From Christensenellaceae bacterium (lineage in GTDB: Bacteria > Bacillota > Clostridia > Christensenellales > CAG-138), in the NCBI GenBank assembly GCA_963666935.1, contig OY762936.1, forward strand, positions 453,354-517,353: 64,000 bases of DNA, in the 5' to 3' direction. The notes beneath the pieces were generated by a model. It worked only from the letters and a program-made list of their open reading frames with translations. It did not search any database and was not told the DNA's origin. Made by a program: the position numbers and the translations under genes. Positions 14,967 to 31,390 of the stretch are shown here, in pieces. How positions within the stretch are numbered: the stretch's first letter is position 1; every line of letters starts with the position of its first letter.

Positions 14967-15500
14967 TGGCGGAGAAGGAGGGATTCGATTTCGGCCATCG
15001 GCAGGCCGAGCTTGCACTTCGTACTGCGCTCGTCGCGCCTGGCACGAAATCCCGGCCTCTAAAAACGCTTCACCGGAGCGTTTTCTTAACGTGGCTTCGA
15101 ATCCCACTCAACAACAGGCACAAAAAAAAACCCGTCTTAAAAACGGGCTCTTCTTTGTGGCGGAGAAGGAGGGATTCGAACCCGCATACAGCCATATTTA
15201 TGCGTATTTTTGCGTTATTTACCGTATGGATATTTGGCTAAAAACAGGCTTTTTTTACTTCGCCCGTGTCATTCAATACAACTGATTGATAAGGGGTAAG
15301 GGGTAAAATAAGGGGTAGAAAATGCGCCCTTCAACTAAACTTTTCTGAAGTAGTTTATCTCCCTATTCTTAATTCTTCGTCTGGCCTAATAGCTTCTTGG
15401 TGCAATCTTCTTTGCTTCGTCTATGCTTCAGATTACTTTAGTTCATGCTTTGTTCAATTTAATACTTACTTCCATAGCAGCCCTTTCTATGATGGGAACT
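14967..15500. repeat. 535-bp direct repeat R1 (copy 2 at 21791-22325), containing two tRNA-Ser 3'-end fragments
   Basis: Nearly identical to 21791-22325, with a few substitutions near the ends. Contains tggcggagaaggagggattcga at 14967-14988 and tggcggagaaggagggattcgaaccc at 15158-15183. Also contains a minus-strand terminator (cccgtttttaagacggg plus T9) and a triple aagggg-ta repeat at 15281-15311. ORFs predicted inside are translation artefacts. Confidence 0.8.
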
Positions 15501-15605: not shown

Positions 15606-17105
15606 TTAAGAAAACACAAATCCGCGCTCTCGAAATAACTTTATACAAGCATCAACCACTTTACCGTCATATTTTACCCCTCGGTGCATAGCAATCTCAT
15701 TGATTGCTGCATCAATACCCAAAGCTGGCCGGTACGGGCGATGTGACATCATTGCTTCAACAACATCTGCGACAGCCAATATCCTACTTTCAGTAATTAT
15801 TTGGTCTGCTTTCAGTTTCTGAGGATAGCCGCTACCATCCAGTCTCTCATGATGCTGATAAATCATCTCGATAATCTGCTGAGGAAAGTCAATTTCTTTG
15901 ACTATTTCATAGCTATATTCAACGTGACCCTGCAATATTTGATATTCCAGGTTGGATATTTTGCCAGGCTTGTTGAGAATGTCAGAAGGGATGTGAACTT
16001 TACCAATATCATGAATAAGCGCGCCAATCGATATATTATATATGACATCATCCGGTAGTTTCATTTCTTTGGCAATCGCACAAGACAATAACGCTACTCT
16101 CTTTTGATGTCCTGCAGTATATGCATCCTTCAGCTCTCCAATTTTTGATATTGTATTGATTGTTTGCTGCAACCTAAGAAGAAGTTTTTCATTTTTCCTC
16201 GCAAGTTCCTCTGACAGCACATGCAGGTTTTGACTTAACTGTGCAAGATTTTCCGCTGCAAGTTTGCGTTCCGAGATATCAATGCAAAAGGCAAGAATGC
16301 AGTTGTCATCAATTTTTGTACCAAAAAGGTCTATCCAATAATCTTTACTATCTTTTTTTCTAACTAAATATTCTGCAGATAAAATTCCTTTGTCTATAAG
16401 TTCATGAAAATCTGCAAGCCCTTTTTCAATTTGATCAGTTGCAAGGAAATCAGCCACAGATAGGCCTAATACCTCTTTCTTTGTACGCCCCATCATCCGG
16501 CATCCCATTTCATTTACATCAATATATCGGCCTAGAGCGTTAGTCACAAAAACTCCGATTGGGGCCTTTTTGATGTAAGATTTGAAGATATCTTCACTTC
16601 TTCTTAACTTGATTTCAAGCTTTTTCCGTTCGCTAATCTCTTGTTTCAGTTCGCTTGTGCGGTGTTCCACCAACAATTCAAGCTGATCTTTTCGATTGCT
16701 GACAAGTATGTTTCTCTCTTTGATTTTTGCCATTGCAATTAATTGTGTTATTAATACCATGTCATCTATTGGTTTGAAAAGAAATGCCTCTGCTCCTGCT
16801 TCAAAAGCTTTTAGCCGGAGTTGCTGGTCGTCTTCTAAGTCAGTAATAAATAACATTGGAGTAAACTGTAGGCTTTGCTCTTTCTTTAAAATCTGACTTA
16901 TTTTCAAACCATCAGCTTTACTCATAGATATATCAAGCAAAATAACATCAGGGTCATGGTCTTTTGCATATTTTATGCATTGTAATATTTTTGAGGTAAT
17001 GTCAATTTTTGCTCCAGGAAGCGCTTTGGAAATAGTTTCCGCCAAACTTTTTGAATTAGTTATACTATCGCCTAGAATTATAATTTTTAGGTTTCTTTCC
17101 TCCAT
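15606..17105 (-). CDS. response regulator with REC, PAS and HD-GYP (c-di-GMP phosphodiesterase) domains
   Basis: REC motif DVILLDISMSKADGLKI is present. The HD-GYP signature HDIGK ... HHERLDGSGYP is present. RBS ggaggaaagaaat precedes the ATG at 17105. Confidence 0.7.
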   Translation of the reverse strand: MEERNLKIIILGDSITNSKSLAETISKALPGAKIDITSKILQCIKYAKDHDPDVILLDISMSKADGLKISQILKKEQSLQFTPMLFITDLEDDQQLRLKAFEAGAEAFLFKPIDDMVLITQLIAMAKIKERNILVSNRKDQLELLVEHRTSELKQEISERKKLEIKLRRSEDIFKSYIKKAPIGVFVTNALGRYIDVNEMGCRMMGRTKKEVLGLSVADFLATDQIEKGLADFHELIDKGILSAEYLVRKKDSKDYWIDLFGTKIDDNCILAFCIDISERKLAAENLAQLSQNLHVLSEELARKNEKLLLRLQQTINTISKIGELKDAYTAGHQKRVALLSCAIAKEMKLPDDVIYNISIGALIHDIGKVHIPSDILNKPGKISNLEYQILQGHVEYSYEIVKEIDFPQQIIEMIYQHHERLDGSGYPQKLKADQIITESRILAVADVVEAMMSHRPYRPALGIDAAINEIAMHRGVKYDGKVVDACIKLFRERGFVFS

Positions 17106-17195
17106 ATTTCTTTCCTCCAATAATATTTTCCATACCAAGGTGTTGCAAATATAACTTATCACGTTAATCCCACCATAAACATTTGAAAAATCACC

Positions 17196-18706: not shown

Positions 18707-21079
18707 TCAGGTTAGTGAAGTGTCAGCCTGTTCCCGCAACAAATCGGCAAACTGTTCCGGCACAATAGGTCTGCTAAAGTGGAACCCCTGCATCTCGTCA
18801 CAGGACTGATCCTTTAGGTAGTTCATTTGTTCTATTGTTTCGACACCTTCGGCCACAACTGTTAAACCTAAGGTTTCACCCATGGCAATGATAGCATGGG
18901 TAATCGCCTTGTCTTCAGCGTTTTCCGGGACATTACGGATAAATGAACGGTCAATCTTTAGCGTATCAATGGGGAAATGCTTGAGCTGGGCAAGAGATGA
19001 GTATCCTGTACCAAAATCATCAATGGCCAGTCGCACTCCTATACTTTTAATTCTAACTAACACATCCATCATTTTCGTAGGGTTAGTCATTATCATGCTT
19101 TCGGTAATTTCCAATTCCAATAGATTTGGTGCCATACCGGAATCGTTTAGAGCGGCTTTTATATCATCTATCAGATTGTTATCTGCAAGTTGTCGTAATG
19201 ACAAATTTACCGCCATACAGACAGCTGGAAGCCCCTGCTTTTGCCATGCAACGTTTTGAGCGCATGCTGTCTTCAATACCCACTTACCAATTGACACTAT
19301 CATTCCTGTTTCTTCAGCCACTGGGATGAATTGCGTGGGAGTCACTGAACCAAGGTGTGGATTTTGCCAGCGAAGGAGTGCTTCCACGCCGGTTATGATG
19401 CCTGTTTTGAAATTCACTTTTGCTTGATAATGTAAAGAAAGCTCATTTCGTTCAAGCGCAAGCCGTAGATTTGTCTCAATAGCCAAACGTCCTGCTGATT
19501 GCAACTGAATATCTTCGGAGTAAAATTGAAAGTTGTTTTTGCCTTCTTCTTTGGCATAATACATAGCCATATCCGCATGTTTCATCAGTAGTTGTTCGTC
19601 TTCGCCATCCTGAGGGTATATGCTTATGCCAATGCTGGCAGTTACTCGGCATTCGTCACCCAGCAGAACTATTGGTTTATAAGTGCTGGCAAGAATATTA
19701 TTAGCTACAAGTTCTAAATCACTCAACTTGTTAAAGTCCTCAATCAAAATAATAAATTCATCTCCACCCTGACGGCTGACAACATCCTCTGCGCGTAGTG
19801 TTTGCTTATATCGCATGGCAATCTCTTGCAGCAGTTGATCTCCTGCCTCGTGACCCTTAGTGTCGTTGATTATCTTGAAACGGTCAAGGTCAATGAAGAA
19901 AACTGCTAATTTCCGTTTGTGACGTTTCGCAGTCTGGATCGAATGGTTAAGAATTTGGGAAAGCATCAATCGGTTGGGCAACCCCGTCAGGCTATCATGT
20001 GTGGCGAGATATTGAATCTTTCCCTCGGCGATTTTATATTCGGTAACATCTTTGGATGCGAGGACAAATCCTATCCGGGTATTATAATTATCGCTGCATT
20101 CGGAAATTGATAGAATTATTGGAATATTCACACCTGCGCTAGAAACCATGAACGTTTCCACATTCCGTATAGGACATGAGTTCAGCAATTCGGAAATGCT
20201 TGTATTGGTTGATTCGCCATCCGAGAGGAAGAGTCTTCCCAGCGGTTCTCCACCCAATTCCTTTTGGGTGTATCCCAGCAGCCTTTGCGTTTCCGGATTA
20301 ATACTTAATATGATTCCTTTTTGATCTGTAAGAATTACAGAATCGATGATTGTCTGAAATAAATTCTCTGCAATTAAAGATGGTGACAGTGTCATTAATT
20401 TATATTTTATAATAGCATATAAAATTCCCAGTTGCCAGATCATCATTCCTGCTGCAATCATATCCGGGATTTCGGCTTTGATGATTATATTTGCACACAC
20501 ATTATACCCCATGGTAAACAAAAAGGAAGTTGCGCCCGAAAAAAATATTATTTTAGTCTGTTTTCGTTCCCTTGTTGAGGTAGCTCTTCTTAGCACAGAA
20601 TAACATAAGTACATGTTTATTGTCCCTAAGATTCCTATGAAAATCATTAAAATCCAATACCATGCTGACGCTGCATTAGCAACTAATCTCCATCCGTATT
20701 GATTATAAATCACATCACTAAAGTATAAATTTTGTTTTATTGCCTGAAATATAAAAATAATTGCGGGCAAATAAAGCACAATGTAAATCCACCATTTTTT
20801 TAAAATGTTATCCTTTTTCGTATATACAAGAAGAAAGTGAAGAGCAAGGCTCGAAAATGTGCAAAATCCAATAGACGCTATCGTATTCCAAATGATACAA
20901 CTGGCTTTATCAGGCATGATTATTGAAACAGCGGTAGCAAACGACCATATAAAAAGACTTAGATTAAGCACAAAATACGTCCTGTTTAATGCTGCTTTTC
21001 TGTCCTTGAAGAGCATAACAACGCCCATAGTAAGATAAATAATACTAAATAAAAACAATAACTGTGAAAAAAAGTTCAT
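18707..21079 (-). CDS. membrane sensor diguanylate cyclase/phosphodiesterase (multi-TM N-domain, PAS, GGDEF, EAL)
   Basis: About 8 N-terminal TM helices. GGDEF motif RQGGDEFIIL is present. EAL motifs EALLRW and DDFGTGYSSL are present. RBS ggag sits 8 nt upstream of the ATG. Confidence 0.75.
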   Translation of the reverse strand: MNFFSQLLFLFSIIYLTMGVVMLFKDRKAALNRTYFVLNLSLFIWSFATAVSIIMPDKASCIIWNTIASIGFCTFSSLALHFLLVYTKKDNILKKWWIYIVLYLPAIIFIFQAIKQNLYFSDVIYNQYGWRLVANAASAWYWILMIFIGILGTINMYLCYSVLRRATSTRERKQTKIIFFSGATSFLFTMGYNVCANIIIKAEIPDMIAAGMMIWQLGILYAIIKYKLMTLSPSLIAENLFQTIIDSVILTDQKGIILSINPETQRLLGYTQKELGGEPLGRLFLSDGESTNTSISELLNSCPIRNVETFMVSSAGVNIPIILSISECSDNYNTRIGFVLASKDVTEYKIAEGKIQYLATHDSLTGLPNRLMLSQILNHSIQTAKRHKRKLAVFFIDLDRFKIINDTKGHEAGDQLLQEIAMRYKQTLRAEDVVSRQGGDEFIILIEDFNKLSDLELVANNILASTYKPIVLLGDECRVTASIGISIYPQDGEDEQLLMKHADMAMYYAKEEGKNNFQFYSEDIQLQSAGRLAIETNLRLALERNELSLHYQAKVNFKTGIITGVEALLRWQNPHLGSVTPTQFIPVAEETGMIVSIGKWVLKTACAQNVAWQKQGLPAVCMAVNLSLRQLADNNLIDDIKAALNDSGMAPNLLELEITESMIMTNPTKMMDVLVRIKSIGVRLAIDDFGTGYSSLAQLKHFPIDTLKIDRSFIRNVPENAEDKAITHAIIAMGETLGLTVVAEGVETIEQMNYLKDQSCDEMQGFHFSRPIVPEQFADLLREQADTSLT

Positions 21080-21790: not shown

Positions 21791-22325
21791 TGGCGGAGAA
21801 GGAGGGATTCGATTTCGGCCATCGGCAGGCCGAGCTTGCACTTCGTACTGCGCTCGTCGCGCCTGGCACGAAATCCCGGCCTCTAAAAACGCTTCACCGG
21901 AGCGTTTTCTTAACGTGGCTTCGAATCCCACTCAACAACAGGCACAAAAAAAAACCCGTCTTAAAAACGGGCTCTTCTTTGTGGCGGAGAAGGAGGGATT
22001 CGAACCCGCATACAGCCATATTTATGCGTATTTTTGCGTTATTTACCGTATGGATATTTGGCTAAAAACAGGCTTTTTTCACTTCGTCCGTGTCATTCAG
22101 TATAACTGATTGATAAGGGGTAAGGGGTAAAATAAGGGGTAGAAAATATGCCCCCCAACTAAACTTTTCTGAAGCAGTTTATCTCCCTATTTTTAATTCT
22201 TCGTCTGGCCTAATAACTTCTTGGTGCACTCTTCTTTGCTTCGTCTATGCTTCAGATTACTTTAGTTCATCCTTTGTTCAATTTAATATTTACTTTCAAA
22301 GCAGCTCACTGGTAATGGGAACTAA
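21791..22325. repeat. 535-bp direct repeat R2 (copy of 14967-15500), with tRNA-Ser 3' fragments at 21791-21812 and 21982-22007
   Basis: Nearly identical to R1. Copy offset is about 6824 bp. Confidence 0.8.
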
Positions 22326-22674
22326 AAAAATACTCCGGCTACCGATTAAGACTATGCTTGCACTAAAAGTTACCGAATAAATAATGCCGTCTATAAAAGA
22401 ATGCATCCCAATGCCTACTAACGCGGTTATGCCAAAAGCCAGATCGGGTTGTTTCGTTTTATATTTTATAAATTTATTACTAAAGAACATGAACATAAAA
22501 CCTGCTAAGGCAGCCAGACCCGCGTTGGGATTTTTTTATGGCTTGGGGAAAAGCCATAACTAGAGGAGCGGAAATTAAAACGCCAGCCGCGAAACATATA
22601 AAATGCTCCTTAGCTCTTTCTGCCCAAACTCTATTTCTATAAACAAACAAAATTCCAAGGCTATTTACTATCAT
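22296..22674 (-). pseudogene. ZIP-family (ZupT-like) metal transporter, frameshifted
   Basis: Two adjacent ORFs in different frames. The HSFIDGI motif resembles the ZIP TM4 HSxxEG signature. A T-homopolymer lies at the junction (~22530). Confidence 0.3.
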
Positions 22675-22747
22675 TGCACTTAATGCAAAAGTCGCAATCC
22701 ATGTGAATGTACTAAATGTTGGCCTTTTCTTATCTCCTTTTAACTGG

Positions 22748-23944
22748 TCAATTTTTTAAAGGTGAATTAATTGTTAGGCCAAGTTTTTTAAGCGCTATTT
22801 CAGGAGTCTCTTTATCTGTGACAATTATTTCAATATTTGAGTCAGAAAAAACATAGGCCGGTCCTTTACTGCTAAAGTCTTTTTTGAGTAGGACTAGATC
22901 AACCATATTCCTTACCAGAAATTCTGCTGCTAATATTCCTTTGCTTTTTTCAATTTTACAAAAGGGATTGTCAATAATCTCTGTCTTATTAGAGGCCTTG
23001 TCTCCAGCCTTAAATGTTACAAGCATAAAATATAATGCTTCCCCAAAATGAGCACTGATCGAAGCTTGATCATCTGTCAACGGTATGGCATAAATGATTT
23101 CTTCCTTTTGTAGTGGCTCATAATGGATAAGTATCCGGTCTATGTTCTTGATTTCAACTTTGATATGGTCCTCTATTTTATCTACAAGGTAATGAGCTTT
23201 GTCTAAGTCGTGCGTTTTGATAATTAAACTTGCTTCAATAAACTTAAACCGTCCTGAATTACGGCCTGTTAGGGATTTCAGCTCGATTACTTGAGGTGTA
23301 TCTACAATGATCTTTTCCACCTTGCTAAGTGTTTTATAATCTAAGGAAGCGTCCAAAAGGACTCGGATCCCATCCAGTAATATTTCCAGTCCAGTCTTTG
23401 CAATAAATCCAACAACAATGAAAGCCGCTACCTTATCAAATTGATATCCCAGTATGTTGGCAATTATTGCTGCCAAAACAGCTGTATTGCTTAACACGTC
23501 CGTACGGATATGAGCAGCGTCAGCTAATAACATGGGCGAATTTATTTTTTTCCCAATTTTTTTCTCATATCTGGAAAACCAGAAGGTGATCACCATTGCA
23601 ACGACTACACTAAGTATTGCAAGCCAAGAATTTTGCAGTGTTCCCGAACTTTTTGTCATAACCTCCCGCACAATCTCATAACCCGTGTAGAGGATAATTA
23701 AGGAAATTAAAACAGACATTAAATTTTCAACCTTATAGAGGCCATATGGAAATCTCTTGGTTTTGCGTTTTGCAATCTTCAATCCTACAAAAACAGTTGA
23801 AGATGCAACAAAATCCGCAAAGCTGTGAAATGCTTCAGCTTTTAATGCAATACTGCCAGACGCAGATGCAGCCAAATATTTTACGCCAAATAAAAGAAAA
23901 TTAATAGCCATCGATAGCAGTGCCGTTCTTTCGCTTATCTCCAT
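22748..23944 (-). CDS. cation diffusion facilitator (CDF) transporter fused to a C-terminal NifX/NafY-like (dinitrogenase FeMo-cofactor-binding fold) domain
   Basis: CDF HxxxD motifs are present in two TM helices (HSFADFVAS and AAHIRTDVLSN). C-terminal ISAHFGEALYFMLVTF matches the PF02579-type FG..A..F core. Confidence 0.6.
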   Translation of the reverse strand: MEISERTALLSMAINFLLFGVKYLAASASGSIALKAEAFHSFADFVASSTVFVGLKIAKRKTKRFPYGLYKVENLMSVLISLIILYTGYEIVREVMTKSSGTLQNSWLAILSVVVAMVITFWFSRYEKKIGKKINSPMLLADAAHIRTDVLSNTAVLAAIIANILGYQFDKVAAFIVVGFIAKTGLEILLDGIRVLLDASLDYKTLSKVEKIIVDTPQVIELKSLTGRNSGRFKFIEASLIIKTHDLDKAHYLVDKIEDHIKVEIKNIDRILIHYEPLQKEEIIYAIPLTDDQASISAHFGEALYFMLVTFKAGDKASNKTEIIDNPFCKIEKSKGILAAEFLVRNMVDLVLLKKDFSSKGPAYVFSDSNIEIIVTDKETPEIALKKLGLTINSPLKN

Positions 23945-24247
23945 AAAATCACACCCTTTCAAAAACATTGATTATCTATAAATCATTTTAACCTATAGGT
24001 ATCATATCCCTTATAATTTATCGCAACCACCCCGCTGTCTTTTTTCAGATCATCTAAAATTACATTGATATTGTTACAGCTTCTCGACTTTAGAAATCCT
24101 TCAATTTCGAACTGGTTCATAGGATGACGCTTTATAATGCTCACGATTCTGTAATTTGTCGATCTTTTGCAAGGCCGGCAAAAGGTGTCCCAAAATCCGG
24201 CATTTCGTTTACCTCCTTAATTCTTACTCGCTGTAGACCTTAACCTA

Positions 24248-24922
24248 TTATTTCTTTTCTTTATTAAAGCATAAGAACCAATCAAGGCAATATTTATTTT
24301 CATCTTGGTTTTCCATTCTCTCCTTGGCAACTCCACATGATCCAGGTGTTGGAATAATCGTATCATCTCCCGGCCTCCAGTTGGCTGGTGTGGCAACTGA
24401 ATCTTTATCGGCCTTTTGTAAAGCAAGTATTATTCTCTTGATTTCATCAAAATTACGCCCACAGGATGCCGGGTAGTATAGGATAGTTCGAATAACCGCC
24501 TTTGGGTCGATGACAAATACTGCACGCACTGCCTGAGTGGTAGACTGAGATTGGATCATTCCATATTTATTGGCTACTTCCATTTTGATATCTTCAATTA
24601 AAGGGAATTTCACTTCAACTTTCTCCAGGCCATTCCATTTTAACTCCTGTATCTTTCTGAGCCATGCTATGTGCGCATAAAGTGAGTCTACTGAAAGTCC
24701 GATAAGCTCTGTATTCAATGCTTTGAAGTCTTCTGCCATTGACGCAAAAGTCATAAATTCAGTGGTACAAACTGGTGTAAAATCGGCTGGGTGAGAAAAC
24801 AAGATCACCCATTTACCTTTGAAGTCATCAGGAAAATTGATTGCGCCTTGCGTTGTTACTGCTTTAAACGCTGGCGCCAAGTCCCCAATTAATGGCATTC
24901 TATTTACATTCATTTCTTCCAT
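24248..24922 (-). CDS. 1-Cys peroxiredoxin (Prx6-like, AhpC/TSA family)
   Basis: FTPVCTTE peroxidatic-Cys motif is present. RBS aaggagg sits 8 nt upstream of the ATG at 24922. Confidence 0.75.
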   Translation of the reverse strand: MEEMNVNRMPLIGDLAPAFKAVTTQGAINFPDDFKGKWVILFSHPADFTPVCTTEFMTFASMAEDFKALNTELIGLSVDSLYAHIAWLRKIQELKWNGLEKVEVKFPLIEDIKMEVANKYGMIQSQSTTQAVRAVFVIDPKAVIRTILYYPASCGRNFDEIKRIILALQKADKDSVATPANWRPGDDTIIPTPGSCGVAKERMENQDENKYCLDWFLCFNKEKK

Positions 24923-25042
24923 GATTATTACCTCCTTTAATTTTATAAAAAAATATGGTATTTGCCCAAAAGAGATACATACACCGTTTTCCATTGTTTT
25001 GTCATCTACTAGCATTGCTATTTTTATTAGGTATCCTCCTCC

Positions 25043-25387
25043 TTATCGTATTGTTCTTCTTCCACAACCATGCATCCGCTCAATTTCGTTGTAAAGTTTA
25101 TAATCTCCGCCTTCAATCTTAAGAACGTTCCCATTAACTAAGGACTCGGCGATCTTACTTCGTGCATCCCTGTAAATATTTTGAACAGTAGCACGTGCAA
25201 CCTGCATCTTTTCAGCACATTCTTCCTGAGTCAAACCTTCAAGATCTATAAGGCGGATAGCTTCATACTCTTCAACTGTCATCATAATAATTTCGTTTTC
25301 TATATCTGATCCATTAAGCGGTCCATATAGGTTGCTCTTTGGCAGGCAACATACTTTTCTCCATTTTCTTGGTCTTGACATTACCAA
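25043..25387 (-). CDS. DUF134 (UPF0251) family putative DNA-binding regulator
   Basis: N-terminal [10 protein letters not shown] and a central HTH-like segment [28 protein letters not shown] are present. RBS gaggtg precedes the ATG. Confidence 0.55.
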
Positions 25388-25429
25388 TTCACCTCATTCA
25401 AGCAACATAAGTAACAGGGGTATCCCCTG

Positions 25430-25726
25430 TCACTTATTAACCTCTGGCATATTTTCTAATTGTCTACTAACAATATCTAGCCTTTTTTGAAGTAACTCTT
25501 TTTGCTCTGTAAGAATCTCTTTGTCAGTTAACACAACAGTTTCTCCAGCAAAAGATCTTCCAAATCCTCGTAGGCATCCATAGCCCGCTCCCCGACCTAA
25601 TCCTCTGCCACTTACTCGACCAAATCCAGCGCCATATCCGCCTACATTAGCTCCATTGCAAACTCCTGAGACTCTTCCGCTCATTGCTCCACGACCCATT
25701 GGGCCTGTTCCATCTCTTCCTGGCAT
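25430..25726 (-). CDS. Gly/Arg-rich small protein (DUF5320-like) with C-terminal coiled coil
   Basis: N-terminal MPGRDGTGPMGRG followed by GRG/GYG repeats containing Cys. C-terminal helical KEILTEQKELLQKRLDIVSRQLENM. Confidence 0.45.
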   Translation of the reverse strand: MPGRDGTGPMGRGAMSGRVSGVCNGANVGGYGAGFGRVSGRGLGRGAGYGCLRGFGRSFAGETVVLTDKEILTEQKELLQKRLDIVSRQLENMPEVNK

Positions 25727-25749
25727 AGTATCTTTTCCTTTCGATTTGA

Positions 25750-25986
25750 TTATGTTCTAATCATTGTCGTACCGCATTTTGGGCACTTCATACTTGCACA
25801 AGGTTCCGCACGTAGATGTTTTACTTTTTCACCACAGTTTGGGCATTCACAATAACCTTCTGGACCTGCACTTGCAGGACCTCCCATTTTTCCTCTACCA
25901 GCTGCTGTTCCAGTTTGTCTGCCTATACCGGCACCTCTGCCTGCTCCAGCTGGGCCTGTTCCGTCTCTTCTTAACATATCTACCAC
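25750..25986 (-). CDS. Gly/Arg-rich small protein (DUF5320-like N-terminus) with C-terminal CxxC...CxxC zinc ribbon
   Basis: N-terminal MLRRDGTGPAGAGRGAGIGR. C-terminal CECPNCGEKVKH...CPKCGTTM. RBS aggaggtg precedes the ATG. Confidence 0.45.
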   Translation of the reverse strand: MVDMLRRDGTGPAGAGRGAGIGRQTGTAAGRGKMGGPASAGPEGYCECPNCGEKVKHLRAEPCASMKCPKCGTTMIRT

Positions 25987-26023
25987 CTCCTAATGGTTTT
26001 TGGCATATGCTATTTATAATTTC

Positions 26024-26051
26024 ATTATAGACTGTTTTTGGCATATGTCAA
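26024..26051 (-). promoter_or_regulatory. near-consensus sigma-A promoter (TTGACA-16-TATAAT) for the DUF5320/DUF134/Prx/CDF operon, bracketed by direct-repeat putative operator catatgccaaaaac x2
   Basis: On the minus strand: ggttaTTGACAtatgccaaaaacagtcTATAATgaaattataaatagcatatgccaaaaacc, then RBS aggaggtg and the ATG at 25986. Confidence 0.5.
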
Positions 26052-26244
26052 TAACCGTTTTGGAATAAGCAAAATGAAACAGAGCCGGCACTCAAGGAAT
26101 TATTTCCTCTAGAGACGGCCAGTTTTGTACAGGTGATACTGTATTAAGGACTATTCGTCATTAACTTCTGCGAGCTGTGGCCGCTGATCGATTGTCAGTA
26201 CCACGCCTTCACTCTCTAATGCATATCCGATCAATTGGAAATAG

Positions 26245-26290
26245 CGATTTAACTGCAACAAAGAGCAATTAAAATCTATAAGGAGTATTT
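26245..26290. repeat. 46-bp direct repeat (copy 1) cgatttaactgcaacaaagagcaattaaaatctataaggRgtattt with internal imperfect palindrome TTAACTGC-N8-GCAATTAA
   Basis: Second copy at 27826-27871. The two copies flank the patatin gene. Confidence 0.7.
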
Positions 26291-26479: not shown

Positions 26480-27325
26480 TCAATTACTTTTCTTAAATAT
26501 TTTATGGGCTAGCTTTTCCCAGTAGTTCGGAGTCTTTCCTTCGAGAAGTTTTTTAATATCATCAATCATTCCAAGTGCTGCGGCTCTGCCTATGCCAATG
26601 CTTTCTTCCACTTTCGCAAATTCAGTTGGGCCGATTTTACTTGTATCTACCACAATTGTAATATCTGCATCGGTTTTCATTCCACGCATGGCCTCCCATT
26701 GCTGAAGCTCAAAAGAATATATCATAATATCAACGATGTTTTTAGGTGAAGAACGGAGCTCTCCACGGTAACCAACATCTACTGCTATCACAATATCTGC
26801 GCCCATACTGCGCGCTGCATCTACCGGTACCCTTACAAGCACTCCACCGTCTACATAAGTCTTGCCGTCAAATATTACGGGTTCGAACACTCCAGGAAGG
26901 GAGATACTAGCACGAACCGCATCTGTCGTTTTGCCTGAATCAAATATCTTAACCTTACCATCTTCCAAGCAGGCGGATATTGTGGCAAACGGTATTTTCA
27001 TTTCATCTATATTGCTATCGCCAGTCAATGCAGTGATAATGGTATCTATATTATTACCTTTTATAAGACCAATGCGCGGCAGAGTAACATCAATAAGTTT
27101 TCCGTATCCATTGCTGAAGGTATCGGACACAATGGTATGTATTTCTTCAGATGAAATGCCGCTTGCGAACATGCAGCCTATTACAGCGCCCATACTGCAT
27201 CCGGCAATAAAGTCTATAGGCACACCATGTTCTTCCAATACCTCCAACACACCTATATGAGTCAGTCCTCTGGCAGCACCTGCTCCAAGAGCCAATCCGA
27301 TTTTAACTTTCTTATTCATTTTCAT
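26480..27325 (-). CDS. patatin-like phospholipase
   Basis: GxGxxG oxyanion motif (LALGAGAARG), GxSxG nucleophile motif (GCSMGAVIG) and a downstream DGG Asp motif are present. Confidence 0.75.
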   Translation of the reverse strand: MKMNKKVKIGLALGAGAARGLTHIGVLEVLEEHGVPIDFIAGCSMGAVIGCMFASGISSEEIHTIVSDTFSNGYGKLIDVTLPRIGLIKGNNIDTIITALTGDSNIDEMKIPFATISACLEDGKVKIFDSGKTTDAVRASISLPGVFEPVIFDGKTYVDGGVLVRVPVDAARSMGADIVIAVDVGYRGELRSSPKNIVDIMIYSFELQQWEAMRGMKTDADITIVVDTSKIGPTEFAKVEESIGIGRAAALGMIDDIKKLLEGKTPNYWEKLAHKIFKKSN

Positions 27326-27825
27326 TCGCTCCTGTTGCTTTATTTATTACAATTCATTCAAAAAATTATTGCAAGATAAAGTGCTAATAAGCATTGAATT
27401 ATTATCCTTATCGCTTGAATTAAATTTTCGAGTTCTTCCGGTGTGCAAGTAAAAACGTTCAAGAAAACATATTAACCAAAAATATTTCTCCTGACTGCTC
27501 ATGCTTGGGAATATATCGAAACCCGCATTGTATCCGGTCTATTAAGATTCGTATAATATGTATAACCTGTTACAGTGTGTTCCTTTAATATAATATTTAA
27601 AGGTATATGGTTGGAATTGTCAAATTTGGCTCTTATCTACAGGCAAGATAGTTGCAATGCCTGGAGAGAATACGAGCGGCCGGTAGGGTTCTGCTACGGA
27701 TAGCCCGGGGATATTTAATAACCCTAGTATCAATATTTCTATCCTTAGGAGAACCTTAATGCGATAACACATGATAAAGAAAAAACCGCAGACAGCGATG
27801 CTAATCACACTATTGCCTGCGGTTA

Positions 27826-27871
27826 ACGATTTAACTGCAACAAAGAGCAATTAAAATCTATAAGGGGTATT
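27826..27871. repeat. 46-bp direct repeat (copy 2) of 26245-26290
   Basis: Identical except for one substitution. Confidence 0.7.
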
Positions 27872-27919
27872 TTAACAAAGAAAAAAAGCCAGTTTTCCCA
27901 GATAAACAGGCTTTTCTTG

Positions 27920-27982
27920 TGGTGGAGAAGGAGGGATTATCATTATGAGCCGCAAAGAGCGCGGCTGAACGGTTTATCATTT
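27920..27982. repeat. element C/E2: tRNA-Ser 3'-end fragment (tggtggagaaggagggatt) fused to conserved motif attatgagccgcaaagagcgcggctgaacggtttatcattt
   Basis: Copy of the arrangement at 12267-12329. The discriminator base differs (A vs G). Confidence 0.6.
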
Positions 27983-28294
27983 GCCAACCCCACGATCTGC
28001 ATTATTGCTGCCGAAAACGTCGCACGGTAAACAAGAACCGGGCGGCGTTTTTTTATGATAGTAACCCAACGCATAATAAGCATGATGTTATTGTGGTTGG
28101 CTGCATACGCCGGCACAATAGATACCGCGAATGTGGCCCTGCGCTCTACACAATCATGTTTGGATTTTCCTAATTACAAATGCGTGCAACAATAGTCGAC
28201 TACTGTTTACGGACATCTGTCAACCTGACAATAAAAGACTTTAATTTTGCTTAATGCCAGACTGCCCGAAAAGTGCTCCGGCCGTATTAACACA

Positions 28295-28305
28295 CCCCCC
28301 CCCCC
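28295..28305. repeat. homopolymeric C11 tract followed by an extended -10 (TGgTATAAAT) about 230 bp upstream of the FG-GAP/C11 gene pair
   Basis: cacaCCCCCCCCCCCgcaaag ... gagtaTGgTATAAATaa. Confidence 0.5.
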
Positions 28306-28575: not shown

Positions 28576-29631
28576 ATGAATGCATCTTTTGCTCCGGCTG
28601 TGTTTTATGGCACCGATCGCGGTCCCTACGGAATCGTTGTTGCTGATTTCACCGGCACGGGCGTTATAGATTTGGCCACGGCATGTAACCAAAATGATAG
28701 TGTGGCGGTATTACTTGGGAATGGCAACGGTACATTTAAAACGATGGTGACGTACGCTGTTGGAAGCAATCCCACCGCTGTCACTGCGGCTGATTTTAAT
28801 GGGGACGGCAATATGGATTTGGCTGTAACAGATTCAAACGGCGGTGATATTGCGGTTCTTTTCGGTAACGGTGATGGTACTTTTGGATCTGCTCATGCCT
28901 TGTCGGCGACCTCGAACCCGCTCAGTATCGTATCGGCCGACTTTAGGAATAACGGCAATATGGATCTGGCCATAGTCGATGCGGGCGCCTCCGTAGTAGG
29001 CGTCCTGCTTGGCAACGGCAATGGTACTTTTGCGGCAATGACACTTTATCCAATAAGTGCTGTGGGCGTTGGAATCATAGCTGCTGATTTTAACGGCAAC
29101 GGCAAAATGGACTTGGCGGTAACCTGTGATGATGGGCAGGTTAGAATCTTGCTTGGAAACGGTAACGGCACGTTTATGGATGCAGTAGCTTACCCCGCGG
29201 GCAATGACGTTGTATATGCCACTGCCGCCGACTTTGACAACGATGGTAAAATGGATCTTGCCGTAACAAATATGAGTACCAATAAAGTTGCGATCCTGCT
29301 TGGGAATGGCGATGGTACTTTTCGAAGCCCAACATTTTTCGATGCCGGATTTTATCCATGCGGCATCGTGTCCGCAGATTTTAACGGAGAAGGTAAAATG
29401 GATCTGGCAGTAACAAATATAGGCGATAACCGTGTCGCAATTTTGCTTGGAAACGGCGACGGTACGTTCCAGAGCTGTCAATTTTATAATGCAAACGACT
29501 ATCCGGCCAATATTGTAACGGAAGACTTTAACAGGGACGGTAAAAAAGACTTGGCCGTGATTGGTTTCTATTCCAATAATGTCGGAGTATTCATCAACAC
29601 AACGCCGGTTCGCGGCCTGCCTTCTTTATAG
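28576..29631 (+). CDS. FG-GAP/VCBS repeat 7-bladed beta-propeller protein, no signal peptide (predicted cytoplasmic)
   Basis: Seven repeats of the pattern ADFNGDGxMDLAVT...LLGNGNGTF. RBS ggagg precedes the ATG. The N-terminus is not hydrophobic. Confidence 0.7.
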   Translation: MNASFAPAVFYGTDRGPYGIVVADFTGTGVIDLATACNQNDSVAVLLGNGNGTFKTMVTYAVGSNPTAVTAADFNGDGNMDLAVTDSNGGDIAVLFGNGDGTFGSAHALSATSNPLSIVSADFRNNGNMDLAIVDAGASVVGVLLGNGNGTFAAMTLYPISAVGVGIIAADFNGNGKMDLAVTCDDGQVRILLGNGNGTFMDAVAYPAGNDVVYATAADFDNDGKMDLAVTNMSTNKVAILLGNGDGTFRSPTFFDAGFYPCGIVSADFNGEGKMDLAVTNIGDNRVAILLGNGDGTFQSCQFYNANDYPANIVTEDFNRDGKKDLAVIGFYSNNVGVFINTTPVRGLPSL

Positions 29632-29724: not shown

Positions 29725-30918
29725 TTGAGTATGCGGCAGAGAGCCGACTGGACGATTTTAATTTATGCTGACGGCAACAACGATCTCGAACCTGAAATGC
29801 AGCGGGTTTTGCATGATGCAGAAACGGTTGGATCAAATTTAAATGTGAACGTGGCGATACAAATTGGCAGAGCGGAATTTGAGCTTGTGAAGCTTATAAG
29901 GCCTGGCGCTAATTTGAAAGATGATCATAGTTGGAGCGGCGTCAGGCGCTATTTTGTTACCCAAGGCGATTCCGAATTGGTTGAAAGCCTGAATAAAGCC
30001 AATATGGCAGATCCCAGGCAGCTTTATCAGTTTGTTAAATGGGGTATTCTGTCTTATCCGGCGGAAAGATACATGCTGGTATTAAGCGGCCATAGTTATC
30101 ACTGCGTTGGCATGATAACCGATTACAGCGAGAATGCCCCCTGTATAATGGGACTTCCGGAAATGGTTAACGCCATCAATATGGCCGCAAACGAAACGGA
30201 CAAGAAAATCGATGTTCTCGTGATAGACGCTTGTTACTCCAATTCGTTAGAGCTCCTTTATGAATTTGGTATGGATGAAAATCATGCGGTTCAAAATGTC
30301 ATTACCTATATTGTTAACGGGCCGATAGAGGGGTTGCCCTATAATCACGTCATTAACTTGGTGCAGGCAAATTGTATTGAAGATACTGAGGTGCTAATCA
30401 AAAATCTCATACAAAATCTATCGCATAATTTAGTTTCCTTTAGAATAGACCATAAGGCGCTTCTGCAAATCAAGCAGTTATTTAGTGATAAATCTGCCGA
30501 GTGCATTTCAAAAAACGCGGGTGATGCCATGCTGGATCATCAAACACTGGTTATGGAACAAAGGCGTATCATTCAGTTCATATCCAGCCGGGCACTGCCT
30601 ATTTATATTTATTATTATAAACAAAGTGATAACAACCAATTAATTATGGTAAAAGGCGGTATCGGCAGTCGTTTCAAAATAGAGGAAAATTACTACCGGT
30701 TGGGATTTGCGCAGAATAATTGTTGGACCCGCTTGCTAAACGATAAACCGGTCGATTTCGATAAGGTAAATGCCATGCAAAAAGAAAGTATGCAGCCGCT
30801 GGAAATGAGTCCTCAGGAAGTATACGAGAGTATTGCTATCATTAAACCAGGTCTGGAGCAAGCACAAATCAGTGATATCTTAAATAGGCTTTATCAGCAT
30901 AAGAATTGGCTTTTATGA
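29725..30918 (+). CDS. clostripain-like cysteine peptidase (MEROPS C11, clan CD), no signal peptide
   Basis: WTILIYADGNNDLE N-terminal block is present. His (LSGHSYHC) and Cys (LVIDACYSNS) catalytic-dyad blocks are in C11 order. TTG start at 29725 or ATG at 29731. A tandem 13-mer aaggagcgattaa x2 precedes the start. Confidence 0.7.
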   Translation: MSMRQRADWTILIYADGNNDLEPEMQRVLHDAETVGSNLNVNVAIQIGRAEFELVKLIRPGANLKDDHSWSGVRRYFVTQGDSELVESLNKANMADPRQLYQFVKWGILSYPAERYMLVLSGHSYHCVGMITDYSENAPCIMGLPEMVNAINMAANETDKKIDVLVIDACYSNSLELLYEFGMDENHAVQNVITYIVNGPIEGLPYNHVINLVQANCIEDTEVLIKNLIQNLSHNLVSFRIDHKALLQIKQLFSDKSAECISKNAGDAMLDHQTLVMEQRRIIQFISSRALPIYIYYYKQSDNNQLIMVKGGIGSRFKIEENYYRLGFAQNNCWTRLLNDKPVDFDKVNAMQKESMQPLEMSPQEVYESIAIIKPGLEQAQISDILNRLYQHKNWLL

Positions 30919-31055: not shown

Positions 31056-31148
31056 TGGCGGAGAAGGAGGGATTCGAACCCTCGCGCCAGTTACCCCAGC
31101 CTACTCCCTTAGCAGGGGAGCCCCTTACAGCCACTTGGGTACTTCTCC
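31056..31148 (-). tRNA. tRNA-Ser (anticodon GCU)
   Basis: Reverse complement ggagaagtacccaagtggctgtaaggggctcccctGCTaagggag...gcgagggttcgaatccctccttctccgcca. It has a long variable arm and a 7-bp acceptor stem with G73 and encoded CCA. It is followed by hairpin terminator gggcaccctatgggtgccc. Confidence 0.85.
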
Positions 31149-31181
31149 ACAAAACTGTATCACAAAGTAAAAATGTATCGT

Positions 31182-31270
31182 TGGCGGAGAGAGAGGGATT
31201 CGAACCCCCGGTGCCTTGCGGCATCACTGGTTTTCAAGACCAGCTCCATAAACCACTCGGACATCTCTCC
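31182..31270 (-). tRNA. tRNA-Ser (anticodon UGA)
   Basis: Reverse complement ggagagatgtccgagtggtttatggagctggtctTGAaaaccag...ggggttcgaatccctctctctccgcca. Confidence 0.85.
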
Positions 31271-31390
31271 TTAATGAGCCTTTGTATTATAGCAAAGTCA
31301 AGGAGCCGGTGTCAATATGGTTGTGTTTTGTTTTGCGTTGTATTAGAATATTTATGTAGACAAATCAGCTAATTTTCGTGGAGGTAAGAT

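What the first reader, a model, noticed from the sequence alone, without database searches (positions are those of the whole stretch)
22748..26060. Uncharacterised operon: DUF5320-like Gly/Arg-rich proteins (one with zinc ribbon), DUF134 regulator, 1-Cys peroxiredoxin, small ORFs, CDF transporter fused to a NifX/NafY-like cofactor-binding domain
All genes are on the minus strand behind a near-consensus promoter (26024-26051), with catatgccaaaaac direct repeats placed like an operator. DUF134 and DUF5320 are uncharacterised families. Fusing a CDF metal exporter to a FeMo-cofactor-binding-fold domain suggests handling of a metal-cluster or metal-chelate cargo, and the peroxiredoxin links it to oxidative stress. 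The RGG/GYG-rich small proteins with Cys and a zinc ribbon are unusual. This may be a coherent metal/redox homeostasis system of unknown mechanism carried as island cargo.
Basis: partly seen in the sequence, partly recalled or inferred. Interest (0 to 1): 0.65.

Follow-up and report, generated by a model that had tools for sequence, protein, structure and literature searches.

The report
Eroded NifX-linked metal operon, conserved operator
This is a real single-promoter operon, but it is the cut-down remnant of a gene cluster that many anaerobes carry, probably for handling iron-sulfur or other metal-sulfide species; its promoter holds a palindromic operator conserved across many Firmicutes, which points to the unstudied DUF134 protein as the repressor.

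Summary
A perfect TTGACA-16-TATAAT promoter (26051-26024, minus strand) drives ORF1, ORF2, DUF134, a peroxiredoxin and a CDF transporter fused to a NifX-like domain. The exact 14-mer repeat is real.

Three points change the reading.

1. The operon is a deletion derivative. Relatives carry about 6.2 kb more between DUF134 and the CDF gene: NifX, two MinD/ferredoxin ATPases, an MBL hydrolase, Mrp, NifX, NifU, a small ferritin-like protein and a radical-SAM enzyme. This is an ORP-like cluster. A NifX stump, a dead ZIP-like gene and a 3'-truncated DUF134 are also present.

2. The "direct repeat" is two copies of a palindrome, TTGACATATGyCAA. One overlaps the -35 box and the other lies 38 bp downstream. 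The same layout precedes ZnR, DUF5320, DUF134, NifX and CDF-NifX genes in many Firmicutes. The DUF134 core folds like sigma region 4.

3. ORF1 is not a DUF5320 protein. It belongs to an unannotated Cys6-His family. Both small-protein types occur elsewhere fused to NifX-like domains, which resembles the thioferrate-storage protein IssA.

Function remains inferred. The peroxiredoxin is an occasional neighbour, not a core member.

The parts
26024..26051 (-). Sigma-70-type promoter, TTGACA-16-TATAAT, 12 of 12 matches
   Evidence: Only two such sites occur in the window, against 0.04 expected.
26034..26051 (-). Operator copy 1, TTGACATATGCCAAAAAC. The palindromic core TTGACATATGCCAA contains the -35 hexamer.
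   Evidence: The PWM score is 27.5 bits, and the same element sits at the same position in many Firmicutes loci.
25996..26013 (-). Operator copy 2, ATAGCATATGCCAAAAAC. It lies 38 bp downstream of copy 1, between the -10 box and the ribosome-binding site.
   Evidence: The 38-39 bp spacing recurs in L005, L007, L009, L010, L012, L013, L016, L020, L025, L030 and L032, and in Peptoclostridium.
25750..25977 (-). ORF1, 75 aa. It has an N-terminal MLRRDGTGP motif, a Gly/Arg-rich stretch (pI 11.8), then CxCPxCG-x5-H-x5-C-x4-CPxCG (six Cys and one His). It belongs to an unannotated 'ZnR' family.
   Evidence: A profile search finds 2017 representative clusters. The invariant residues are C43, C45, C48, H54, C60 and C65.
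25430..25726 (-). ORF2, 98 aa, DUF5320. It has the same N-terminal motif, a cationic Gly/Arg/aromatic region (residues 1-60: 21 Gly, 8 Arg, pI 11.5) and an acidic C-terminal region that is helical or coiled-coil by analogy to the fused relatives.
25043..25381 (-). DUF134 (UPF0251) DNA-binding protein, 112 aa, with a sigma-region-4-like helix-turn-helix core. Its C-terminus is truncated and lacks the CxxC...C part that relatives conserve.
24945..25027 (-). Stump of a NifX-like gene, about 27 codons. The start codon ATG has become ATA.
   Evidence: The homology with L007, L086 and L088 ends here.
24248..24922 (-). Peroxiredoxin of the Prx6 subfamily, with a C-terminal CxxxxxxC pair as in the Aeropyrum and Pyrococcus enzymes.
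   Evidence: Orthologues at 80-82% identity lie next to CDF-NifX in L024 and L030.
24141..24203 (-). Stump (20 codons, MPDFGTPFAGLAKDRQITES) of the 102-aa ferritin-like (Rubrerythrin/EncFtn-like) gene.
23982..24147 (-). Stump (last ~53 codons) of the radical-SAM gene that precedes the CDF gene in relatives.
22748..23944 (-). YiiP-like CDF transporter. [quoted passage not shown]
22296..22725 (-). ZIP-like pseudogene. The start codon is lost (ATG to AGG), there is a frameshift in an A-run, and the 3' end is diverged or truncated.
21791..22090 (.). 300-nt repeat, 99% identical to 14967-15266. It contains tRNA-like fragments and a 30-nt match to the site beside the integrase of the related island in L088. 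It marks the island boundary.

Best explanation
The locus is an eroded copy of a gene cluster that is widespread in anaerobes. The cluster combines NifX-like domain proteins, MinD/ferredoxin and Mrp ATPases, small Gly/Arg-rich proteins and a CDF-NifX transporter, and resembles the ORP cluster of Desulfovibrio. Here it sits on a low-GC island next to tRNA-Ser.

What the data show:
- One strong promoter drives ORF1 (Cys6-His 'ZnR'), ORF2 (DUF5320), DUF134, a peroxiredoxin and CDF-NifX.
- About 6.2 kb of the ancestral cluster has been lost, leaving three gene stumps.
- The promoter carries two copies of the palindrome TTGACATATGyCAA, in a layout conserved in front of genes of this set in many Firmicutes.

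What is inferred:
- DUF134 has a core that folds like sigma region 4, the domain that reads -35 elements. I propose it binds as a dimer to this palindrome, which is two inverted -35-like hexamers. This would block RNA polymerase at the -35 box and at about +10, and would autoregulate the operon.
- The conserved cysteines of DUF134 (CC near the N-terminus, one in the HTH region, CxxC...C at the C-terminus) probably hold a metal or an Fe-S cluster that sets its activity. This would parallel the Fe-S redox sensor OrpR, which controls the orp operons in Desulfovibrio. The copy in this window has lost part of that motif and may be signal-blind.
- The two small cationic proteins are predicted partners of NifX-like domains. 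In this window the only such domain left is the one on the CDF. Together they would rebuild in trans the architecture seen fused in other phyla (NifX + GMGRG-type tail + coiled coil, and NifX + ZnR). That architecture resembles IssA, whose cationic Gly-rich tail binds anionic iron sulfide.
- The CDF most likely exports Fe2+ or Zn2+, with the NifX-like domain acting as a cytoplasmic binding or sensing site for an Fe-S or metal-sulfide species.
For: Deletion derivative:
- blastn of the window against L086 gives two blocks. Window 26061-24945 matches L086 1637-2782 at 86%, and window 24147-22351 matches L086 8939-10739 at 82%.
- L007 gives the same picture.
- L086 and L087 carry the full cluster: DUF5320, DUF134, NifX, two MinD/Fer4 genes, MBL, ParA/Mrp, NifX, NifU, a ferritin-like gene, radical SAM, CDF-NifX and a ZIP-like gene.

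Operator:
- The same layout is found in front of ZnR, DUF5320, DUF134, NifX, CDF-NifX, ZnuA, flavin-reductase, radical-SAM and MBL genes.
- In 72 loci not used to build the matrix (1.04 Mb) there are 32 hits of at least 20 bits, against 0-1 in shuffled sequence. Seventeen of the 32 fall in upstream windows that make up 3.6% of the sequence.
- Nineteen of 20 loci with DUF134 carry the operator, against 6 of 60 loci without it.
- The layout is also present in the cultured Peptoclostridium acidaminophilum.

Cysteines: conservation and the loss in the window copy are shown.

Partner inference:
- NifX::DUF5320 and NifX::ZnR fusions lie next to CDF-NifX genes.
- The ZnR module is also fused to NifX together with PDZ or rhodanese domains, or to an Fe-S domain.
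- Among 80 species genomes with CDF-NifX, 33 have a ZnR ORF in the fetched locus and 20 have one within 1 kb. Nearly all are on the same strand.

IssA analogy and regulator precedent:
- The NifX-like domain's best solved relative is MTH1175, E 9e-6, which PMC5524996 calls IssA-type.
- Tail composition is compared and PMC5524996.
- OrpR precedent: PMC8359166. ORP and Mrp precedent: PMC6345978.

CDF: YiiP-like fold. HD-HD residues are invariant in 26 homologues.
Against: - Nothing here is experimental.
- The DUF134-operator association is confounded by phylogeny. Both are largely confined to Firmicutes in this sample, and 6 loci have the operator without a DUF134 gene within 10 kb.
- The N- and C-terminal Cys regions of the DUF134 model have pLDDT below 50, so no metal site is modelled.
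- The IssA resemblance rests on domain family and amino-acid composition, not on alignable tail sequence.
- An HD-HD transport site is most typical of zinc transporters, so the transported ion may have nothing to do with Fe-S species.
- In this window the regulator is truncated and most partner genes are gone, so the remaining genes may be misregulated or non-functional.
Confidence: 0.6

Rival explanations
1. One reading: the five genes as now arranged, peroxiredoxin included, form a purpose-built metal/redox homeostasis unit that moves a metal-cluster or FeMo-cofactor-like cargo through the CDF.
For: - All the genes share one promoter.
- The same peroxiredoxin type lies next to CDF-NifX in L024 and L030.
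- prxU lies near the cluster in Peptoclostridium.
Against: - The DUF134-peroxiredoxin junction lies inside a NifX stump, and the peroxiredoxin-CDF interval is made of two gene stumps. The order is therefore a deletion or replacement product.
- A peroxiredoxin lies within 10 kb in only 3 of 35 fully flanked loci.
- CDF transporters move single cations through an HD-HD site, not clusters.
- There are no nif genes nearby, and the NifX-like domain is MTH1175-type.
Confidence: 0.15
2. The conserved palindrome is bound by a regulator other than DUF134. Candidates are the ZnR or DUF5320 protein itself (Arg/Gly-rich and a zinc ribbon, both common in nucleic-acid binders) or a factor encoded elsewhere, such as a Fur-family, Rrf2-family or ArsR-family protein. 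DUF134 would then do something else.
For: - Six loci have strong operators but no DUF134 within 10 kb.
- Fur-family, HxlR and ArsR genes lie in some neighbourhoods.
- ZnR or DUF5320 is the first gene behind the operator in most loci.
Against: - DUF134 is the only DNA-binding family that recurs in these clusters.
- DUF134 genes often have the operator in front of them, which fits autoregulation.
- A sigma-4-like HTH matches an operator built from -35-like hexamers.
- The motif differs from the known Fur, Zur, PerR and Rex boxes (my own knowledge).
Confidence: 0.2
3. The system handles molybdenum or tungsten thiometallates (as in the orange protein's Mo-Cu-S cluster) or zinc alone, rather than iron-sulfur species.
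For: - Orp8, the orange protein, is a NifX-like protein that holds a Mo-Cu-S cluster (PMC6345978).
- An FmdE-like gene lies in L007, and an ABC transporter with a PF13531 binding protein lies in L086.
- ZnuA genes carry the operator, ZIP-like genes follow the CDF, and the HD-HD site is typical of zinc CDFs.
Against: - FeoAB follows the CDF in L003 and L007.
- NifU, Mrp, ferredoxin, rubrerythrin and ferritin-like neighbours point to iron and Fe-S.
- MrpORP and the Orp3/4 proteins are Fe-S proteins (PMC6345978).
- A rhodanese-ZnR-NifX fusion points to sulfur transfer.
Confidence: 0.15
4. In this genome the operon is decaying island cargo with no remaining coordinated function.
For: - There are five lesions in 4 kb: a 6.2-kb deletion, three stumps counted as one event, a truncated DUF134, and a ZIP-like gene with three defects.
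- The surroundings are mosaic, with repeats and integrase fragments.
Against: - ORF1, ORF2, the peroxiredoxin and CDF-NifX are full length and keep all family-invariant residues.
- ORF1 is intact here although it is a pseudogene in L007 and L086.
- The promoter and both operators are intact.
Confidence: 0.2

Closest known systems
ORP (orange protein) gene cluster and complex of Desulfovibrio vulgaris (Orp3/4 MinD-ferredoxin ATPases, Orp5, Orp8 NifX-like, Orp9 = MrpORP), regulated by OrpR
   Same: - Full-length relatives of this operon (L005, L007, L086, L088) carry the same building blocks: NifX-like proteins, two MinD/Fer4 ATPases, and an Mrp/NBP35 protein with or without a NifX-like domain.
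- It is specific to anaerobes.
- Its regulator senses through an Fe-S cluster (PMC8359166).
   Different: - In the window all the ATPase genes and free-standing NifX genes are deleted.
- Regulation here uses a sigma-70 promoter with a palindromic operator and a DUF134 gene, not sigma-54 with OrpR.
- The CDF-NifX, DUF5320 and ZnR genes are not part of the described ORP complex.
IssA, the thioferrate iron-sulfur storage protein of Pyrococcus furiosus (PMC5524996)
   Same: - It combines an IPR003731 (NifX-like) domain with a cationic, Gly-rich, aromatic-containing, disordered tail that has a single Cys.
- The CDF's NifX-like domain is closest to MTH1175, which that paper calls IssA-type.
- ORF2 residues 1-60 (21 Gly, 8 Arg, 5 aromatic, 2 Cys, pI 11.5) resemble the tail in composition.
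- NifX + GMGRG-repeat + coiled-coil fusions lie next to CDF-NifX genes.
   Different: - Here the domain and the 'tail' are on separate polypeptides, and the domain is tethered to a membrane transporter.
- The tail sequences are not alignable with IssA as that paper describes it.
- DUF5320 adds a conserved N-terminal DGTGP motif and a C-terminal coiled coil.
- Thioferrate binding is untested.
YiiP/FieF-type cation diffusion facilitators (also MamB/MamM, MntE)
   Same: - It has six TM helices, a ZT_dimer cytoplasmic domain and a YiiP-like fold (Foldseek E 2e-15, 26% identity).
- TIGR01297 scores 170 bits, and the best NCBIfam subfamily match is MamB, below its cutoff.
   Different: - It has an extra C-terminal NifX-like domain of about 115 aa, present in all 120 best homologues and in 397 species genomes.
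- The transport site is HD-HD, not the DD-HD of YiiP.
- I found no study of this fusion in the literature searched.
Sigma-70 region 4 / ECF sigma-4 domains that read the -35 element
   Same: - The operator half-site is the -35 consensus TTGACA.
   Different: - DUF134 is only 112-130 aa, lacks regions 2 and 3, and so cannot be a sigma factor.
- It has an N-terminal RPRKWRK arm and Cys motifs.
- Its predicted target is a palindrome, which implies a dimeric repressor.
Archaeal-type Prx6-subfamily peroxiredoxins (Aeropyrum pernix, Pyrococcus horikoshii; PDB 2CV4, 3W6G, 5OVQ)
   Same: - phmmer E-values run from 5e-67 to 7.5e-52 for these entries.
- The peroxidatic FTPVCTTE motif and the C-terminal CxxxxxxC pair are conserved.
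   Different: None of note. This is an ordinary member of the subfamily. The label '1-Cys' describes the Pfam C-terminal domain, not necessarily the mechanism.

Membership tests
CDF transporters (TIGR01297 / PF01545) | HMM match above the curated cutoff, with the six-helix membrane domain | tested here: met
   TIGR01297 scores 169.8 bits against a cutoff of 82.35, and PF01545 has E 2e-41. The AF2 model has six long helices.
CDF transporters (TIGR01297 / PF01545) | Tetrahedral transport site on TM2 and TM5, plus the cytoplasmic dimerisation domain | tested here: met
   H40, D44, H145 and D149 are invariant in 26 homologues. PF16916 has E 1e-11. The fold is YiiP-like.
NifX / NafY / NifB-C (FeMo-cofactor carriers proper) | Membership of the NifX or NafY clade and a nif gene context | tested here: not met
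   Only the generic PF02579 domain is matched (30.9 bits). The best solved relative is MTH1175, E 9e-6, and NafY is not matched. No nif genes were seen in the window or in the loci whose gene tables I read.
IssA-type thioferrate storage proteins | IPR003731 domain of the IssA/MTH1175 clade | tested here: inconclusive
   The closest PDB relative is MTH1175.
IssA-type thioferrate storage proteins | Cationic Gly-rich tail on the same polypeptide | tested here: not met
   The CDF ends about 10 residues after the domain. The Gly/Arg-rich parts are on the separate proteins ORF1 and ORF2. Fused versions exist in other phyla.
IssA-type thioferrate storage proteins | Binds iron sulfide (thioferrate) and forms nanoparticles | not testable with these tools
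   This needs anaerobic biochemistry.
ORP cluster (Desulfovibrio) | Two MinD/ferredoxin ATPases, an Mrp/NBP35 protein and free-standing NifX-like proteins | tested here: not met
   They are absent from the window, where only a NifX stump remains at 24945-25027. They are present in the relatives L005, L007, L086 and L088.
ORP cluster (Desulfovibrio) | Sigma-54 promoter and the OrpR activator | tested here: not met
   The window has a sigma-70 consensus promoter. No EBP gene is adjacent. DUF134 is there instead.
DUF134 / UPF0251 (PF02001) | HMM match above cutoff | tested here: met
   76.2 bits against a cutoff of 27.
DUF134 / UPF0251 (PF02001) | Conserved Cys set of the short subfamily (C11, C12, C55, C106, CxxC...C) | tested here: not met
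   The window protein ends ...HGCGRRTIR. The Cys of the 'CRR' motif, conserved in at least 90% of relatives, and the following Cys are missing. The DNA comparison indicates a 3' deletion of about 25 nt.
DUF5320 (PF17253) | HMM match above cutoff | tested here: met
   This row is for ORF2: 79.9 bits against a cutoff of 27, covering the full profile. ORF1 has its own row.
DUF5320 (PF17253), ORF1 | HMM match above cutoff | tested here: not met
   ORF1 has no PF17253 hit at E up to 0.1. Only 2 of 61 homologue clusters carry a precomputed PF17253 hit. It shares the N-terminal DGTGP motif only.
Sigma factors (sigma-70 family) | Region 4 fold | tested here: met
   [not shown]
Sigma factors (sigma-70 family) | Region 2 (core binding and -10 recognition) | tested here: not met
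   The protein is 112 aa. Only region-4 Pfam models match, over residues 31-77.
Integrative genomic island | Integrase, flanking direct repeats and tRNA, deviant composition, and the same cargo on islands elsewhere | tested here: inconclusive
   - There is a 300-nt 99% repeat pair and an adjacent integrase ORF.
- tRNA-Ser genes lie at 31056-31270.
- GC is 37-41% here against 52-60% to the right of 32 kb.
- L088 and L089 carry the cluster beside an integrase, an excisionase and a relaxase.
- The exact island limits in the window are not resolved.

The most novel reading that the evidence does not exclude
DUF134 is a new class of small transcription factor: a free-standing sigma-region-4 domain that dimerises on an inverted pair of -35 hexamers and is switched by a Cys-bound Fe-S cluster or metal. 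It would control a Firmicutes regulon in which DUF5320 and Cys6-His 'ZnR' proteins act with NifX-like domains as a split, IssA-like iron-sulfide binding system. That system would be physically coupled to a CDF exporter, giving anaerobic bacteria a membrane-linked route for storing or disposing of iron sulfide.
Probability: 0.25. Interest if true: 0.8.

Novelty: new variant of a known kind. Interest (0 to 1): 0.55.

Why it matters
Four widespread protein families of anaerobes have no assigned function and almost no literature: DUF134, DUF5320, the unannotated Cys6-His 'ZnR' family (about 2000 representative clusters), and the CDF-NifX fusion (at least 397 species).

This locus, read together with its relatives, gives each of them a concrete and testable role:
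- a defined operator sequence and promoter layout for DUF134;
- domain-fusion evidence that the two small proteins work with NifX-like domains;
- a link from the ORP and IssA work in Desulfovibrio and Pyrococcus to Firmicutes and to a membrane transporter.

How anaerobes store, traffic and detoxify iron and sulfide is still an open question (PMC8351635).

The copy in this window is degraded, so its value is as a pointer. Parasporobacterium paucivorans, Dehalobacter restrictus, Sporomusa ovata or Peptoclostridium acidaminophilum would be better systems to study.

Tried and rejected
- Exact-sequence look-ups of the window's CDF and DUF134 proteins, and of P0001, found no contig on record. The best species-level relative is only 79% identical.
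- Literature searches for DUF134, DUF5320, UPF0251, PF02001, PF17253, COG1342 and the operator sequence gave nothing relevant. Prefix matching produced false hits such as DUF1343 and DUF1345. The paper on the small Fe-S protein of the ORP operon (PMID 27240719) is not held, so I could not test whether Orp5 belongs to the ZnR family.
- The jackhmmer search seeded with ORF1 picked up whole fusion proteins. I re-validated hits by motif. My first regular expression was wrong and found nothing; the corrected one was used.
- The two ZIP-like fragments give no Pfam hit on their own. I identified them through the 169-aa L086 orthologue.
- A PWM hit at 28206 (19.8 bits) has no -10 box or gene behind it, so I dropped it as chance.
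- There is no match in the phage collection. Among plasmids the only informative hit is the Peptoclostridium megaplasmid.
- No solved structure is a sequence relative of DUF134 or DUF5320.
- The Foldseek search with the whole CDF model returned only CDF structures and says nothing about how the NifX-like domain docks.

Full report
**Anatomy.** The minus strand between 26051 and 22748 carries a perfect sigma-70 promoter, TTGACA-16-TATAAT. It is one of two such sites in the window, against 0.04 expected. Five intact ORFs with good ribosome-binding sites follow.
- ORF1 (75 aa) has no Pfam family above cutoff.
- ORF2 (98 aa) is DUF5320, E 3e-22.
- The third gene is DUF134, E 3e-21, and also matches Sigma70_r4 models.
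- The fourth is a Prx6-subfamily peroxiredoxin (PRK13189, 326 bits).
- The last is a CDF transporter with ZT_dimer and a C-terminal PF02579 NifX-like domain, 30.9 bits against a cutoff of 26.3.

**The operon is a deletion derivative.** The CDF-NifX fusion is a large, well conserved family. All 120 best homologues have the three domains, and 397 species-level genomes encode it, in Clostridia, Negativicutes, Desulfobacterota, Chloroflexota, Archaeoglobi and others.

The closest relatives show what the window has lost. In L086 and L087 the gene order is DUF5320, DUF134, NifX, two MinD/ferredoxin ATPases, MBL hydrolase, ParA/Mrp, NifX, NifU, a 102-aa ferritin-like protein, radical SAM, CDF-NifX and a ZIP-like gene. 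Parasporobacterium paucivorans (L007) is similar.

blastn aligns the window to L086 in two blocks: 26061-24945 with L086 1637-2782 (86%), and 24147-22351 with L086 8939-10739 (82%) (the same holds for L007). About 6.2 kb is thus replaced in the window by 0.8 kb that holds the peroxiredoxin.

The stumps and other lesions are:
- the first ~27 codons of NifX, at 24945-25027;
- the first 20 codons of the ferritin-like gene, at 24141-24203, which match nine loci;
- the last ~53 codons of the radical-SAM gene, at 23982-24147.
- the ZIP-like gene downstream of the CDF, which is dead through start-codon loss, a frameshift and a diverged 3' end;
- the DUF134 protein, which ends ...HGCGRRTIR where relatives have ...GCGRCRRNRCG. 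It has lost a Cys conserved in at least 90% of 35 homologues through a 3' deletion of about 25 nt.

**Island context.**
- The segment has 37-41% GC, against 52-60% to the right of 32 kb.
- It is bounded by a 300-nt, 99% identical repeat (21791-22090 and 14967-15266) that contains tRNA-like fragments.
- It lies near an integrase ORF and a tRNA-Ser pair.
- In L088 and L089 the same cluster (DUF134 92% identical, promoter nearly identical) sits beside an integrase, an excisionase and a relaxase. A 30-nt stretch next to that integrase matches the window's repeat.

'Island cargo' is therefore plausible, but the exact limits in the window are unresolved.

**The operator.** I aligned the regions upstream of ORF1-type genes from other genomes. 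They share the same architecture: TTGACATATGCCC(A/G)TAA over the -35 box, a -10 box 16-17 nt later, and a second copy such as ATGACATATGTCAAAAAC before the ribosome-binding site. The core is a palindrome, TTGACATATGTCAA, made of two inverted -35-like hexamers.

A matrix built from 13 sites finds such elements, usually in pairs 38-39 bp apart, in front of many gene types. These are ZnR, DUF5320, DUF134, NifX-like and CDF-NifX genes, and also ZnuA, flavin-reductase, radical-SAM and MBL genes.

In 72 loci not used for training (1.04 Mb) there are 32 hits of at least 20 bits, against 0-1 in shuffled sequence. Seventeen of them lie in the 3.6% of sequence just upstream of family genes. Nineteen of 20 loci that encode DUF134 have the element, against 6 of 60 that do not. 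That contrast is partly phylogenetic. The cultured Peptoclostridium acidaminophilum shows the same layout before its ZnR and DUF134 genes.

A region-4-like HTH facing an operator made of -35 hexamers is a coherent picture. I infer a dimeric autorepressor that competes with the housekeeping sigma factor.

The short DUF134 subfamily conserves C11, C12, C55, C106 and a CxxC...C tail, and a second subfamily has a C-terminal zinc ribbon instead. In Desulfovibrio the orp operons are controlled by OrpR through a redox-sensitive [4Fe-4S] cluster, and OrpR is confined to delta-Proteobacteria (PMC8359166). By analogy I propose that DUF134 is the Firmicutes counterpart and senses through its cysteines. 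This step is inference only.

**The small proteins.** ORF1 defines a family with an N-terminal MPxxDGTGP motif, a Gly/Arg stretch and an invariant C-x-C-P-x-C ... H ... C ... C-P-x-C module. A profile search finds 2017 representative clusters, 441 of them at E up to 1e-10. Almost all are unannotated.

The ORF1-type module occurs in several fused forms:
- fused to NifX-like domains, in L036-L041;
- in giant PDZ-ZnR(n)-NifX proteins;
- fused to rhodanese and NifX;
- fused to an Fe-S domain;
- fused to a 2x[4Fe-4S] ferredoxin in Dehalobacter.

DUF5320 likewise occurs fused after a NifX-like domain, as NifX + (GMGRG)n + coiled coil, directly beside CDF-NifX genes in Desulfobacterota, Chloroflexota, Poribacteria and an archaeon.

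Among 80 species loci, 33 have a ZnR ORF and 20 have it within 1 kb of the CDF gene. In 35 fully flanked loci, DUF5320 is present in 16, DUF134 in 11, further NifX genes in 19 and a peroxiredoxin in 3. Nearly all are on the CDF strand. The genes retained in the window (ZnR, DUF5320, DUF134, CDF-NifX) are thus the recurrent companions of the transporter.

**Comparison with what is known.** The NifX-like domain is closest to MTH1175 (E 9e-6). The IssA study uses MTH1175 as its IssA-type model. IssA pairs this domain with a cationic, Gly-rich, aromatic tail that is proposed to wrap anionic thioferrate, and the authors note uncharacterised mesophilic 'IssX' homologues with Gly-rich tails (PMC5524996).

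ORF2 residues 1-60 (21 Gly, 8 Arg, 5 aromatic, pI 11.5) and ORF1 residues 1-40 (13 Gly, 5 Arg, pI 11.8) have that character. MrpORP and the ORP complex provide the Fe-S context for the ATPases found in the relatives (PMC6345978).

The CDF is YiiP-like with an invariant HD-HD site. Its neighbours include FeoAB, ZIP-like, ZnuABC and Fur-family genes. Iron or zinc is therefore the likely substrate, and the data do not discriminate between them.

**Verdict.** However, the particular gene order, the peroxiredoxin link and the FeMo-cofactor idea are not supported.

The locus is a degraded member of an ORP/IssA-related cluster. What is new is what the comparison reveals: a conserved operator and promoter layout, a sigma-4-like fold for DUF134, an unannotated Cys6-His family, and fusion evidence that ties both small proteins to NifX-like domains. 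I found none of this in the searchable literature. All functional statements remain inferences until they are tested biochemically.

Noticed in passing
window 14967-15266 and 21791-22090: A 300-nt direct repeat, 99% identical, contains tRNA-like fragments. It brackets a 6.5-kb segment that encodes a response-regulator/HD-GYP protein (15606-17162) and a GGDEF-EAL protein (18707-21079). An integrase ORF (14123-14902) ends just left of the first copy. This looks like tandem island insertions at a tRNA-Ser site.
   Followed up: partly
window 31056-31315: Two tRNA-Ser genes (anticodons gct and tga) sit behind the only other perfect TTGACA-N18-TATAAT promoter in the window (31286-31315). GC content jumps from about 40-45% to 52-60% just to the right of them.
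   Followed up: partly
window 26242-26290 and 27824-27872: A 49-nt repeat, 96% identical, flanks the patatin-like phospholipase gene (26480-27325) immediately upstream of the operon's promoter. This suggests that the patatin gene was inserted or duplicated as a cassette.
   Followed up: no
window 25415-25429: A GC-rich hairpin, CAGGGG-ATA-CCCCTG, lies right after the ORF2 stop codon and before DUF134. It could be a partial terminator or attenuator that lowers regulator expression relative to the two small proteins. L007 has no obvious equivalent hairpin at this position.
   Followed up: no
window 28576-29631: A 351-aa protein is built from 147-nt periodic repeats (FG-GAP/VCBS-like 'ADFNGDGKMDLAV' units). 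A 397-aa ORF follows it at 29725-30918.
   Followed up: no
window 12267-12345 and 27920-27998: A 79-nt repeat, 77% identical, begins with a tRNA 3'-end-like sequence (TGGCGGAGAA...). It may be a further att-site relic.
   Followed up: no
window 28295-28305: A homopolymer run of 11 G on the minus strand lies in an intergenic region. A weak operator-like site at 28189-28206 (19.8 bits) is nearby, with no gene behind it.
   Followed up: partly
L007 252-398 and L086 ~1720-1950: The ORF1-type ZnR gene is a pseudogene in both close relatives (in-frame stop, Cys codons lost), while the window's copy is intact. Different genes of the cluster have decayed in different lineages.
   Followed up: partly
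P0303, P0304, P0310 (772-1430 aa), P0313 (600 aa): Giant proteins combine two PDZ domains, 3-5 copies of the Cys6-His module and 1-3 NifX-like domains. Another protein has a rhodanese-ZnR-NifX architecture. None is annotated.
   Followed up: partly
L001/L017 (Dehalobacter) 9240-9662: The ZnR module is fused to a 2x[4Fe-4S] ferredoxin directly downstream of CDF-NifX. The neighbourhood also holds ZnuABC, a Fur-family gene, ARMT1-like, CGGC-domain and NifX-NifU fusion genes, several of them behind the same operator.
   Followed up: partly
L090 (Peptoclostridium acidaminophilum megaplasmid) 13828-14550: The selenoprotein peroxiredoxin gene prxU and an Mrp/NBP35 gene lie a few kb from the ZnR-DUF5320-radical SAM-DUF134-MBL-Fur cluster. 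This is another loose association between a peroxiredoxin and this gene set.
   Followed up: no
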